Positions 1 to 4,064 of a stretch of 5,090 bases of DNA are shown piece after piece. Position 1 is the first letter of the stretch, and every line of letters begins with the position of its first letter. This DNA is from a virus (lineage: Duplodnaviria; Heunggongvirae; Uroviricota; Caudoviricetes): the IMG/VR virus record IMGVR_UViG_2744054976_000004; one strand, written 5' to 3'. A program made the position numbers and the translations under genes. The notes under the pieces were generated by a model. It was given only the letters and a program-made list of their open reading frames with translations. It was not told the origin of the DNA and ran no database searches.

Positions 1-686
1 CGGGCAAAGGCGATGATGTATTCGCGGAACACATACGCCTGCGTTTTACTGGCCGACAGAAAAATCTGGTTATGACCGGTTTTCAGGGCGCGCAGCAGCG
101 CCTCGCGGGAAAAATAAAACGTCGCGCCAATCTGGCGGGATTTCAGGATATCGCGGATGCGGTGCTCAAGCCCGGCGCGATACCAGTGCAACTGATAGTC
201 GAAAGACTGCTCAAAGAAAATCTGCTCCAGCTTTTCGATGGCCTCGTCACTGAAAAAATTCTTTTTCGGTTTGCGACGCCCGCCTTTGTTGCGGTTAGCG
301 ACGTTCGGATTAAGGTCTGCCTCGTTGCCGGTCTGACTGTAGCGGTTTACCCGTGCCAGTCGTTCAATCTGGCGTCCCAGCAGGTCAATTTCCTTGAAGT
401 CACCGCCGGTTTTCTGCGGTTTGATGATGAGCTGGGTCAGCCGCGCTTCCAGACTCATTTCGACACGGCTGATGGGGGCAACGCTGTCCCAGCCGTCGCG
501 CTGTTTCCAGCTCTGCACCGTCGGGCGTTTCATCTGCAACATGGCGGCAATCTGCGGCACGGAAAACCCCTGCCAGTACAGCAGCGCCGCCTGACGACGC
601 GGGTCGTGAAGTGCTGTTGTGTCAGTGATAAGCCATCCGGGACTGATGGCGGAGGATGCGCATCGTCGGGAAACTGATGCCGACAT
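1..686 (-). CDS. P: Terminase large (ATPase) subunit gpP, N-terminal 228 codons; the rest of the gene lies beyond the left edge of the window
   Basis: Minus-strand frame is open from 686 down to position 1 (hand-translated, no stop). Start ATG is the reverse complement of 684-686, preceded on the minus strand by GAGGAG (revcomp of 691-696) with a 4-nt spacer. Translation begins MSASVSRRCASSAISPGWLITDTTALHDPRRQAALLYWQGFSVPQIAAMLQMKRPTVQSW... and continues ...ILKSRQIGATFYFSREALLRALKTGHNQIFLSASKTQAYVFREYIIAFA. It contains an HTH-like segment and a KSRQIGAT motif (plus 120-143) resembling the deviant Walker A of large terminases. Divergent orientation next to O matches P2 gene P. It is absent from the supplied ORF track only because it runs off the window edge. 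Confidence 0.85.
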   Translation of the reverse strand, partial: MSASVSRRCASSAISPGWLITDTTALHDPRRQAALLYWQGFSVPQIAAMLQMKRPTVQSWKQRDGWDSVAPISRVEMSLEARLTQLIIKPQKTGGDFKEIDLLGRQIERLARVNRYSQTGNEADLNPNVANRNKGGRRKPKKNFFSDEAIEKLEQIFFEQSFDYQLHWYRAGLEHRIRDILKSRQIGATFYFSREALLRALKTGHNQIFLSASKTQAYVFREYIIAFA

Positions 687-800
687 GTGACTCCTCTAAT
701 CACTATTCAGGACTCCTGACAATGGCAAAAAAAGTCTCAAAATTCTTTCGTATCGGCGTTGAGGGTGACACCTGTGACGGGCGTGTCATCAGTGCGCAGG
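600..800. promoter_or_regulatory. Divergent late-promoter region for leftward P and rightward O transcription; exact -10/-35 and activator sites not resolved
   Basis: The P and O start codons are only 35 bp apart (687-721) and that gap is occupied by the two facing SD sequences, so promoter elements must lie inside the coding ends. Short inverted repeats are visible: GTGA-N9-TCAC (687-703), TGACA-N13-TGTCA (766-788) and TCAGT-N15-ACTGA (622-646). No exact TGT-N12-ACA box was found. Confidence 0.35.
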
Positions 801-1576
801 ATATTCAGGAAATGGCCGAAACCTTTGACCCGCGAGTCTATGGTTGCCGCATTAACCTGGAACATCTGCGCGGCATCCTGCCTGACGGTATTTTTAAGCG
901 TTATGGCGATGTGGCCGAACTGAAGGCCGAAAAGATTGACGATGATTCGGCGCTGAAAGGCAAATGGGCGCTGTTTGCGAAAATCACCCCGACCGATGAC
1001 CTTATCGCGATGAACAAGGCCGCGCAGAAGGTCTATACCTCAATGGAAATTCAGCCGAACTTTGCCAATACAGGCAAATGTTATCTGGTGGGTCTGGCCG
1101 TCACCGATGACCCGGCAAGCCTCGGCACGGAATACCTGGAATTCTGCCGCACGGCAAAACACAACCCTCTGAACCGCTTCAAATTAAGCCCTGAAAACCT
1201 GATTTCAGTGGCAACGCCTGTTGAGCTGGAATTTGAAGACCTGCCTGAAACCGTGTTCACCGCCCTGACCGAAAAGGTGAAATCCATTTTTGGCCGCAAA
1301 CAGGCCAGCGATGACGCCCGTCTGAATGACGTGCATGAAGCGGTGACCGCTGTCGCTGAGCATGTGCAGGAAAAACTGAGCGCCACTGAGCAGCGCCTTG
1401 CTGAGATGGAAACCGCCTTTTCCGCACTTAAGCAGGATGTGACTGACAGGGCGGATGAAACCAGCCAGGCATTCACCCGCCTGAAAAACAGCCTCGACCA
1501 CACCGAAAGTCTGACCCAGCAGCGCCGCAGCAAGGCCACCGGCGGTGGCGGTGACGCCCTGATGACGAACTGCTGA
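722..1576 (+). CDS. O: Capsid scaffolding protein / prohead serine protease gpO
   Basis: Same frame as track ORF 656..1576. Preferred start is ATG 722 (AGGA at 709-712, 9-nt spacer), giving 284 aa beginning MAKKVSKFFRIGVEGDT, the length I recall for P2 gpO. Asp19 (776-778), His48 (863-865) and Ser107 (1040-1042) sit where the gpO protease triad is reported. The C-terminal third is alpha-helical/coiled-coil-like, as expected for a scaffolding domain. Confidence 0.92.
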   Translation: MAKKVSKFFRIGVEGDTCDGRVISAQDIQEMAETFDPRVYGCRINLEHLRGILPDGIFKRYGDVAELKAEKIDDDSALKGKWALFAKITPTDDLIAMNKAAQKVYTSMEIQPNFANTGKCYLVGLAVTDDPASLGTEYLEFCRTAKHNPLNRFKLSPENLISVATPVELEFEDLPETVFTALTEKVKSIFGRKQASDDARLNDVHEAVTAVAEHVQEKLSATEQRLAEMETAFSALKQDVTDRADETSQAFTRLKNSLDHTESLTQQRRSKATGGGGDALMTNC

Positions 1577-2711: not shown

Positions 2712-3455
2712 ATGACGAGTCCCGCACAGCGCCACATGATGCGGGTCTCGGCAGCGATGACCGCGCAGCGGGAAGCCGCCCCGCTGCGACATGCAACTGT
2801 CTATGAGCAGATGCTGGTTAAGCTCGCCGCAGACCAGCGCACACTGAAAGCGATTTATTCAAAAGAGCTGAAGGCCGCGAAAAAACGCGAACTGCTGCCG
2901 TTCTGGTTGCCGTGGGTGAACGGCGTGCTGGAGCAGGGCAAAGGTGCACAGGATGACATTCTGATGACGGTCATGCTGTGGCGTCTGGATACCGGCGATA
3001 TTAGCGGTGCGCTGGAGATTGCCCGTTATGCCCTGAAGTACGGTCTGACCATGCCGGGTAAACACCGCCGCACCCCGCCATACATGTTCACCGAGGAGGT
3101 GGCGCTAGCGGCCATGCGCGCCCACGCTGCCGGTGAGTCTGTGGATACCCGCCTGCTGACGGACACCCTTGAACTGACCGCCACGGCTGACATGCCTGAT
3201 GAAGTGCGCGCAAAGCTGCACAAAATCACTGGTCTGCTTCTGCGTGATGGTGGTGATGCCGCCGGTGCGCTGGCTCACCTGCAACGTGCGACACAGCTCG
3301 ACTGTCAGGCAGGCGTCAAAAAAGAGATTGAACGACTGGAGCGGGAGCTGAAACCGAAGCCGGAGCCGCAGCCAAAAGCGGCCACCCGCGCCCCGCGTAA
3401 GACCCGGAGCGTGACACCGGCAAAACGTGGACGCCCGAAAAAGAAAGCCAGTTAA
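2712..3455 (+). CDS. M: Terminase small (DNA-recognition/endonuclease) subunit gpM
   Basis: Track ORF 2712..3455, 247 aa. Start is 3 nt after the N stop (TAA ccg ATG), with GGGAG at 2699-2703. Recognisable as P2 gpM and the same length. The C-terminus is a Pro/Lys/Arg-rich basic tail. Confidence 0.93.
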   Translation: MTSPAQRHMMRVSAAMTAQREAAPLRHATVYEQMLVKLAADQRTLKAIYSKELKAAKKRELLPFWLPWVNGVLEQGKGAQDDILMTVMLWRLDTGDISGALEIARYALKYGLTMPGKHRRTPPYMFTEEVALAAMRAHAAGESVDTRLLTDTLELTATADMPDEVRAKLHKITGLLLRDGGDAAGALAHLQRATQLDCQAGVKKEIERLERELKPKPEPQPKAATRAPRKTRSVTPAKRGRPKKKAS

Positions 3456-3554
3456 CAACCGAATGCGCCCCGCGCCAGGGCGGCACGCCGGTCAGTGACG
3501 GTGAATCACCTGACACTGCACCGGCGTCCACCGCCCGACTTTTCAGAGGTAGTC

Positions 3555-4064
3555 ATGATGACGCTGATTATTCCGCGAAAGGAGGCTCCCGTGTCCGGTG
3601 AGGGTACGGTGGTCATCCCGCAACCGGCAGGCGACGAGCCGGTGATTAAAAACACGTTCTTTTTTCCCGATATCGACCCGAAGCGCGTCCGGGAACGTAT
3701 GCGCCTTGAGCAGACCGTCGTCCCCGCCCGTCTGCGTGAGGCCATCAAGTCAGGCATGGCGGAGACGAATGCGGAGCTGTACGAGTACCGCGAACAGAAA
3801 ATTGCCGCCGGTTTTACGCGTCTGGCGGACGTCCCGGCGGACGACATCGACGGTGAAAGCATCAAAGTTTTTTACTACGAGCGCGCCGTGTGTGCGATGG
3901 CGACCGCGTCGCTTTATGAACGTTATCGCGGTGTGGATGCCAGTGCGAAAGGCGACAAGAAGGCCGACAGCATTGACAGCACCATTGATGAACTTTGGCG
4001 GGATATGCGCTGGGCGGTGGCGCGTATCCAGGACAAGCCGCGCTGCATCGTGAGTCAAATCTGA
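3555..4064 (+). CDS. L: Head completion / capsid completion protein gpL
   Basis: Same frame as track ORF 3495..4064, which starts at a GTG with no SD. Preferred start is ATG 3555 (AGAGG at 3545-3549, 5-nt spacer), giving 169 aa MMTLIIPRKEAPVSGEG..., the length of P2 gpL. The second ATG at 3558 is an equally possible start. Confidence 0.9.
   Translation: MMTLIIPRKEAPVSGEGTVVIPQPAGDEPVIKNTFFFPDIDPKRVRERMRLEQTVVPARLREAIKSGMAETNAELYEYREQKIAAGFTRLADVPADDIDGESIKVFYYERAVCAMATASLYERYRGVDASAKGDKKADSIDSTIDELWRDMRWAVARIQDKPRCIVSQI

What the first reader, a model, noticed from the sequence alone, without database searches (positions are those of the whole stretch)
3351..3455. Basic C-terminal tail of small terminase gpM contains an AT-hook-like RGRP motif
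The last 34 residues of gpM (KPKPEPQPKAATRAPRKTRSVTPAKRGRPKKKAS) are low-complexity and strongly basic. They end in KRGRPKKK (codons at 3423-3446), which matches the AT-hook core (R-G-R-P flanked by basic residues) that binds the DNA minor groove. A disordered minor-groove-binding tail on the DNA-recognition subunit could help cos-site recognition or bending. I do not know whether this has been characterised for gpM.
Basis: partly seen in the sequence, partly recalled or inferred. Interest (0 to 1): 0.4.

Follow-up and report, generated by a model that had tools for sequence, protein, structure and literature searches.

The report
AT-hook tail on P2 small terminase
The small terminase gpM of this P2-like phage ends in a flexible, positively charged tail with a well-conserved AT-hook motif that probably grips A/T-rich DNA at the packaging site, but this role is untested and most relatives outside the P2/186 group lack the tail.

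Summary
gpM (2712-3455, 247 aa, Pfam PF05944) ends in a 34-residue tail of K, R, P, A and T that contains KRGRPKKK at 3423-3446.

The motif is not chance. Shuffling the tail gives RGRP in only 0.4% of trials. In 47 non-redundant homologs (66-88% identical to the window protein), G240, R241, P242 and K244 are invariant, while the linker before them diverges and takes indels. All four RGRP codons vary synonymously, so selection acts on the peptide.

AlphaFold2 predicts the tail as unstructured, attached to a confident TPR-like helical core. Twenty-four of the 120 closest cluster representatives carry KRGRGRPRK, the HMGA1 AT-hook 1 peptide crystallised in an AT-rich minor groove.

The tail is confined to the enterobacterial P2/186 lineage. 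Among 150 representatives of the wider family, only that cluster has RGRP. A Yersinia phage with 57%-identical gpM and a near-identical cos has no tail.

The conserved cos core holds one A/T run (ATTAAAA) about 20-26 bp from the nick, a plausible target. Its association with the tail is weak and confounded by shared ancestry.

Verdict: a real, conserved, probably DNA-anchoring AT-hook arm. It is likely an accessory rather than the main cos reader. I found no prior description. Interest is moderate.

The parts
2712..3455 (+). Gene M, the small terminase subunit gpM (247 aa) of a P2-like phage
   Evidence: ORF. Pfam PF05944 covers residues 35-164 at E 3.6e-48. PHROG 74 'terminase small subunit' at E 9e-106. 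97.8-99.5% nucleotide identity to P2 and pro147 gene M. It lies between the gpN capsid gene and the gpL head-completion gene.
2712..3350 (+). Folded all-helical core, residues 1-213, predicted to be TPR-like
3354..3362 (+). Conserved P-K-P hinge (residues 215-217) where the last helix ends and the tail begins
   Evidence: P215 is invariant, K216 is 91% and P217 is 96% conserved in 47 non-redundant homologs. Helix 203-213 ends just before it.
3363..3413 (+). Variable basic linker rich in P, T and A (residues 218-234)
   Evidence: In most columns the commonest residue reaches only 0.26-0.57 frequency (K230 reaches 0.89), and the region takes several indels. Over 214-236 the mean is 0.54, against 0.81 for the core. 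Block-mean pLDDT is 51 for residues 221-230 and 43 for 231-240, with no secondary structure.
3414..3446 (+). AT-hook-like motif T-P-A-K-R-G-R-P-K-K-K (residues 235-245); the R-G-R-P core is 3426-3437
   Evidence: G240, R241, P242 and K244 are invariant; P236 is 98% and R239 is 96% conserved. All four core codons change synonymously between lineages. Pfam AT_hook PF02178 is the only hit to the tail, at 12.3 bits against a cut-off of 17.4. RGRPKK also occurs in Reeves' AT-hook consensus TPKRPRGRPKK (PMC11354804).
3447..3455 (+). Variable last residues (A-S) and the stop codon
   Evidence: After GRP(K/R/P)K the C-terminus differs between lineages (KAS, NAG, IAS, VDKTTG, AVKTAG).

Best explanation
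The last 34 residues of gpM form an intrinsically disordered, polycationic arm. It consists of a P-K-P hinge, a variable linker and one canonical AT-hook (TPAKRGRPKKK). I propose that the folded TPR-like core oligomerises and holds the large subunit gpP. Each flexible arm then places its R-G-R-P core into a narrow A/T-rich minor groove, while the flanking lysines and arginines contact phosphates. The most likely targets are the ATTAAAA run at the left edge of the conserved 55-bp cos core, about 20-26 bp from the top-strand nick, and the A/T tract about 20-35 bp to the right of the cohesive end. One hook alone binds weakly (micromolar for the isolated peptide), but several arms on an oligomer would add avidity and could stabilise a bend or anchor the terminase at cos. 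Shown here: the motif, its strong purifying selection at the peptide level, the predicted disorder, its restriction to one clade, and the A/T runs in cos. Shown by others: the same nonapeptide found in many orthologs binds an AT-rich minor groove. Inferred: that gpM's tail binds DNA at all, that it binds at cos, and that it is an accessory rather than the primary specificity element.
For: The motif and its coordinates are verified. RGRP appears in only 0.38% of tail shuffles. In 47 non-redundant homologs, G240, R241, P242 and K244 are invariant, while the linker averages 0.54 conservation with indels. Of the roughly 100 full-length members among the closest 120, nearly all keep RGRP or RGRGRP, and two have RGPGRP. 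The codons vary synonymously: CGT/CGC, GGA/GGC/GGG, CGC/CGA/CGT, CCG/CCA. This excludes a DNA-level constraint. AlphaFold2 gives block-mean pLDDT of 43-51 from residue 221 and no secondary structure in the tail. AT_hook is the only Pfam model that touches the tail. [quoted passage not shown] The cos flanks of P2, P4, 186, MDG45, Kp4852-2 and ENT4 align without gaps and share TGCATTAAAA(C/G) at about -30..-19, plus an A/T tract of variable sequence to the right of cosN in otherwise GC-rich DNA. By my count the box falls at the left edge of the 55-bp cos core of Ziermann and Calendar, cited in PMC5694545. There are precedents for flexible small-terminase termini contacting DNA: deleting the P22 C-terminal tail abolishes DNA binding and large-terminase association (PMC9611059), and the HK97 N-terminal arm lies in the minor groove next to an A-tract (PMC11331095).
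Against: The Pfam AT_hook score is below the gathering threshold. No binding data exist for gpM. The tail is missing from every other 50%-identity cluster of the family; median tail length is 12 aa, and half of the longer tails are acidic. Yersinia phage vB_YenM_201.16 has a 57%-identical gpM and almost the same cos architecture, yet has no tail, so the tail is not required for this type of cos. Two phages with GRP tails have ATCAAAA instead of ATTAAAA (L181, L190). C-terminal tails of other small terminases also bind the large subunit.
Confidence: 0.5

Rival explanations
1. The tail is mainly a protein-protein contact. It would dock gpM onto the large terminase gpP, or onto the portal or procapsid, and the conserved KRGRPKK would be recognised by an acidic pocket there rather than by DNA.
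For: C-terminal segments of other small terminases bind the large subunit. Deleting the P22 tail abolishes large-terminase association as well as DNA binding (PMC9611059). The motif sits at the extreme C-terminus of a disordered arm, which is typical of short linear interaction motifs.
Against: The conserved residues match the AT-hook consensus exactly, and many orthologs carry the verbatim HMGA1 hook peptide. The residues after the motif are not conserved. Homologs with the same gene neighbourhood, including a gpP homolog, have no tail. A dual role, as in P22, is not excluded.
Confidence: 0.2
2. The tail is a non-specific polycation, like the histone H1 C-terminal domain. It would bind any DNA electrostatically, for example to aid sliding or to neutralise charge during packaging, with no minor-groove or A/T preference.
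For: Net charge is +12 over 34 residues. The only PDB sequence hit for the whole protein is the histone H1.0 tail, at E 0.029. A few unrelated lineages of the family have basic tails without GRP: six tails reach net charge +5 or more, for example P0212 and P0229, and P0204 has +12 over its last 30 residues.
Against: Pure electrostatics would not hold G-R-P and the following K invariant while the linker's basic residues drift freely.
Confidence: 0.15
3. The motif binds RNA or acts away from cos. Examples would be binding the late mRNA, or competing with nucleoid proteins on A/T-rich phage DNA.
For: The AT-hook review has a section on AT-hooks in RNA binding (PMC11354804). A very stable hairpin lies just downstream of the M stop codon.
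Against: Nothing links gpM to RNA. This is speculative and no tool result supports it directly.
Confidence: 0.05
4. It is a chance low-complexity match with no function of its own.
For: Short motifs arise readily in K/R/P-rich segments. Pfam scores it below threshold.
Against: The shuffle frequency is 0.4%. The motif is invariant across sequences 66-88% identical to the window protein, next to a diverging linker, and its codons change synonymously.
Confidence: 0.03

Closest known systems
HMGA1 AT-hooks (Reeves and Nissen consensus TPKRPRGRPKK; AT-hook 1 KRGRGRPRK, PDB 8CPG)
   Same: It has the R-G-R-P core, K/R flanks and an upstream T-P, and lies in a disordered segment. The window shares RGRPKK with the consensus. 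24 of 120 orthologous cluster representatives carry KRGRGRPRK verbatim.
   Different: There is a single hook per chain rather than three. It is attached to a folded phage protein. The Pfam score is sub-threshold. DNA binding is untested.
C-terminal tail of phage P22 small terminase gp3
   Same: It is a flexible C-terminal extension of a small terminase. Deleting the P22 tail abolishes DNA binding (PMC9611059).
   Different: The P22 tail is not described as an AT-hook, and it also binds the large terminase. P22 packages by the headful (pac) mechanism, and its small terminase has a different fold.
N-terminal arm of phage HK97 small terminase
   Same: It is a disordered basic arm of a cos-phage small terminase. 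On DNA binding it becomes ordered and lies in the minor groove, with Arg7 contacting a thymine next to an A-tract (PMC11331095).
   Different: It is N-terminal, has no GRP core, and works together with a C-terminal helix as an 'arginine clamp'. The protein family is unrelated.
Bacterial AT-hook and AT-hook-like proteins (Myxococcus CarD, mycobacterial WhiB7; H-NS/Lsr2 'RGR' motif)
   Same: These are prokaryotic uses of an RGR or GRP element as an auxiliary minor-groove anchor beside another domain. WhiB7 is cited in PMC11354804. CarD and the xenogeneic silencers were listed; the details come from my own knowledge.
   Different: They are transcription or nucleoid proteins, not part of a packaging enzyme.
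Histone H1 C-terminal domain / S(T)PKK motifs
   Same: The composition is rich in K, P, A and T, and TPAK resembles S/TPKK. H1.0 is the only PDB sequence hit.
   Different: The H1 tails are much longer and lack a conserved GRP core.

Membership tests
AT-hook motif (Pfam PF02178; definition in PMC11354804) | G-R-P core, usually R-G-R-P | tested here: met
   R239-G240-R241-P242 at 3426-3437. G, R and P are invariant in 47 homologs.
AT-hook motif (Pfam PF02178; definition in PMC11354804) | Core flanked by K/R on both sides, often with nearby proline | tested here: met
   The sequence is T-P-A-K-[RGRP]-K-K-K. P236 is 98% conserved and K244 is invariant.
AT-hook motif (Pfam PF02178; definition in PMC11354804) | Lies in a flexible segment, not in a folded domain | tested here: met
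   AlphaFold2 block-mean pLDDT is 43-51 from residue 221, with no secondary structure after residue 213. This is a prediction only.
AT-hook motif (Pfam PF02178; definition in PMC11354804) | Score at or above Pfam's gathering threshold (17.4 bits) | tested here: not met
   12.3 bits (E 0.16) for the window tail and 14.9 bits for an RGRGRP ortholog. AT_hook is nevertheless the only or best hit. This is why I call it AT-hook-like by profile but canonical by the literature definition.
AT-hook motif (Pfam PF02178; definition in PMC11354804) | Binds the minor groove of A/T-rich DNA | not testable with these tools
   There is only indirect support. The identical nonapeptide KRGRGRPRK, present in orthologs, does so in PDB 8CPG. 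A/T runs exist in the cos core.
P2-type small terminase (Pfam PF05944 Phage_term_smal) | Profile match above threshold | tested here: met
   163.3 bits against a cut-off of 29.4, full profile 1-130. PHROG 74 at E 9e-106.
P2-type small terminase (Pfam PF05944 Phage_term_smal) | Position in the P2 late operon O-N-M-L | tested here: met
   gpO, gpN and gpL Pfam families flank it in that order. The same order is annotated in related phages.
P2-type small terminase (Pfam PF05944 Phage_term_smal) | The basic AT-hook tail as a family feature | tested here: not met
   Of 150 representatives at 50% clustering, only the P2/186 cluster has it. The tail is a clade-specific addition, not part of the family definition.
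Structurally characterised small terminases | Fold similarity to a solved small terminase structure | tested here: not met
   [not shown]

The most novel reading that the evidence does not exclude
gpM would be a TPR-like adaptor with no DNA-binding domain of its own. In the P2/186 lineage, the AT-hook arm would then be gpM's only direct DNA contact, reading the ATTAAAA run in the cos core. That would be the first packaging-signal recognition that depends on an AT-hook, and it would leave sequence-specific reading of cos to gpP or to another part of the complex.
Probability: 0.1. Interest if true: 0.65.

Novelty: new member of a known kind. Interest (0 to 1): 0.4.

Why it matters
P2 and P4 are a classic helper-satellite pair, yet no structure related to gpM has been solved and how the terminase recognises cos remains undefined. 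A conserved AT-hook arm gives a small, concrete and easily mutated element to test, through truncation or RGR-to-AGA changes. It also points to a defined DNA target inside the 55-bp cos core. If the hypothesis is confirmed, it would add an AT-hook to the emerging picture, from P22 and HK97, that disordered termini of small terminases contact DNA. It would also explain part of the helper-satellite compatibility within the P2/186 lineage. If refuted, the tail would become a candidate docking peptide for the large terminase.

Tried and rejected
1. Looking for a solved relative. phmmer against the PDB gave only a weak histone H1.0 tail match for the whole protein and nothing for the tail alone.

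2. NCBIfam has no model for gpM.

3. The search for related loci on viral contigs with the window protein returned only loci 98-100% identical. These were useless for divergence analysis, since all 80 carry an identical 27-mer over the motif.

4. Testing covariation between the tail and cos in tail-less phages. In Klebsiella phage 4LV2017 I found no P2-type cos near the portal gene, even allowing 5 mismatches. Yersinia phage 201.16 has a near-identical cos with TGCATGAAAAG and still has a right-hand A/T tract.

Only 20 matches had both the box and a readable gpM C-terminus. T-box: 14 with a GRP tail, 0 without. C-box: 2 with, 3 without. G-box: 0 with, 1 without. I do not count this as evidence because the loci are closely related, the tail-less C-box phages are distant with GC-rich flanks, and there are two counterexamples.

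6. A DNA-level explanation for the conservation (a regulatory site or an overlapping reverse-strand ORF) is rejected, because every core codon varies synonymously and no promoter or terminator consensus lies in 3250-3650.

7. Literature searches for AT-hook plus terminase, and for gpM plus gpP, found no paper that describes this tail. The Aravind and Landsman 1998 paper was not available.

Full report
**What is in the window.** The 5,090-bp window is part of the late operon of a P2-like (Peduovirus) phage. [quoted passage not shown] Only gpO, gpN, gpM and gpL were checked against Pfam. Gene M is 97.8% identical in nucleotide sequence to P2 M and 99.5% identical to phage pro147. The protein has 247 residues.

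**Checking the observation.** The tail has a net charge of +12. RGRP appears in only 0.38% of 200,000 shuffles of the tail, and [KR]RGRP[KR] in 0.05%.

**Conservation within the P2/186 clade.**
- The 120 closest cluster representatives (64-99% identical) come from enterobacterial genera including Escherichia, Salmonella, Klebsiella, Enterobacter, Citrobacter, Cronobacter, Kosakonia and Kluyvera. One record is labelled Vagococcus.
- Nearly all full-length members end in (K/R)RGRP(K/R/P)K or KRGRGRP(R/K)K. Two have RGPGRP. The few without the motif are fragments, apparent fusions or frameshifts, plus one 223-residue singleton (P0035) with a short tail.
- In 47 sequences filtered to below 93% mutual identity, G240, R241, P242 and K244 are invariant, R239 is 96% conserved and P236 is 98% conserved.
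- The linker 214-236 has a mean top-residue frequency of 0.54 and several indels, against 0.81 for the core. A P-K-P hinge at 215-217 is also conserved.
- Between the window, Klebsiella phage ST147-VIM1phi7.1, Salmonella phage PHB48 and the 186-like phage SW9, all four RGRP codons differ synonymously: CGT/CGC, GGA/GGC/GGG, CGC/CGA/CGT, CCG/CCA.

So selection acts on the peptide. It does not act on an overlapping DNA element or a reverse-strand ORF. No promoter-like or terminator-like site lies in 3250-3650.

**Distribution in the wider family.**
- An exhaustive HMMER search of representatives clustered at 50% identity found 1,041 family members.
- Among the best 150, only the cluster representing the P2/186 lineage (P0110) has the RGRP tail.
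- In 117 representatives with a recognisable last helix (GVKKDIERLE-like), the median tail is 12 residues. Of the 46 tails of 15 residues or more, 23 are acidic and 6 are strongly basic. None of these has the AT-hook core.
- Yersinia phage vB_YenM_201.16 has a 57%-identical gpM that ends ...ERLAVKLKNAASR.

The tail is therefore an addition specific to one lineage, not a property of PF05944.

**Is it an AT-hook?**
- By the literature definition it qualifies fully: a 10-15 residue peptide with a GRP core flanked by K/R and often by proline, with Reeves' consensus TPKRPRGRPKK (PMC11354804). The window sequence TPAKRGRPKKK fits this.
- By profile it falls short. Pfam AT_hook is the only model that hits the window tail and the top hit for the variant, but it scores 12.3 bits, or 14.9 for an RGRGRP ortholog, against a threshold of 17.4.
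- KRGRGRPRK is the HMGA1 AT-hook 1 peptide. [quoted passage not shown] This nonapeptide occurs verbatim in 24 of the 120 gpM cluster representatives.

**A possible DNA target.** I assembled the cos junctions of P2, satellite P4, 186, MDG45, Klebsiella phage Kp4852-2 and Enterobacter phage ENT4. [quoted passage not shown]
- The junctions align without gaps relative to the nick.
- They share TGCATTAAAA(C/G) at about -30..-19, GCAT-N5-TTGCAT at -110..-97, and an A/T-rich tract of variable sequence about 20-35 bp to the right of the 19-nt cohesive end. The surrounding DNA is GC-rich.
- By my count the ATTAAAA run lies at the left edge of the 55-bp conserved cos core attributed to Ziermann and Calendar (PMC5694545).

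I then tested whether the box co-varies with the tail. The tail-less Yersinia phage has TGCATGAAAAG and keeps a right-hand A/T tract. A degenerate-pattern scan of viral contigs yielded 20 matches with both features readable. T-box: 14 with a GRP tail, 0 without. C-box: 2 with, 3 without. G-box: 0 with, 1 without. The trend fits the hypothesis, but it is confounded by relatedness and GC content, and it includes two counterexamples. I treat it as inconclusive.

**Mechanism.** The best-supported reading is that the tail is a flexible DNA-anchoring arm.
- The hinge frees it from the TPR-like core.
- The linker gives it reach.
- The RGRP core enters a narrow A/T minor groove while the flanking K/R residues hold phosphates.
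- Multiple arms on an oligomer could supply avidity and stabilise a bent or anchored terminase-cos complex.

Precedents exist. Deleting the P22 C-terminal tail abolishes DNA binding and large-terminase association (PMC9611059). In HK97, disordered termini become ordered on DNA, and the N-terminal arm lies in a minor groove next to an A-tract (PMC11331095). Because closely related phages manage without the tail, it is more likely an accessory than the primary determinant of cos specificity.

**Rivals.** The main rivals are a docking peptide for gpP or the portal, a non-specific polycation, and an RNA or off-cos role. Chance is excluded by the conservation pattern.

**Novelty.** Full-text searches for AT-hook with terminase, and for gpM or gpP with terminase, found no description of this feature. 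The gene itself is well known, and AT-hooks and DNA-contacting terminase tails are known kinds. This is a new member of a known kind, of moderate interest, and it gives a readily testable hypothesis for a poorly understood terminase.

Noticed in passing
[not shown]
   Followed up: partly
L082 (P2 right end), L092 (P4), L093 (186), L088, L089, L090, L097:7690-7840: In seven elements, including satellite P4 and a tail-less Yersinia phage, the left side of cos carries TGCAT-type repeats in a fixed register from the nick: GCAT-N5-TTGCAT at -110..-97 and TGCAT(T/G)AAAA at about -30. The DNA between them is not homologous in P2. These look like cosB-style protein-binding sites.
   Followed up: partly
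window 3478-3536: A long imperfect stem-loop lies in the 99-bp gap between the M stop codon and the L start codon. The 121-nt region folds at -47.7 kcal/mol, with a z-score of -3.4 against shuffles. It is followed by CTTTTC. The terminator consensus scan did not call it.
   Followed up: partly
P0204, P0212, P0229, P0158 versus P0171, P0189, P0240 (family representatives): C-terminal tails of PF05944 proteins vary widely between lineages. They may be absent, strongly acidic, or strongly basic without a GRP core. This suggests repeated and divergent evolution of the tail.
   Followed up: partly
L101-L220: The base after TGCAT in the cos box is polymorphic (81 T, 27 G, 12 C, 1 A among 121 matches). 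Most G-box loci had no gpM within the DNA held. They may be P4-like satellites, or the flanks may simply be too short.
   Followed up: no
window 656-1576: The mechanical ORF for gpO starts at an ATG at 656, but the Pfam GPO match begins at residue 28. An internal Met (MAKKVSKFF..., about position 722) is the likelier true start.
   Followed up: no
P0004-P0006, P0029, P0051, P0081, P0035: Several database 'gpM' entries are fusions with downstream genes or end in frameshifted tails. P0035 (81% identical, 223 aa) ends in a short tail without GRP. Most represent a single sequence or a handful, and are probably assembly or gene-calling errors.
   Followed up: no
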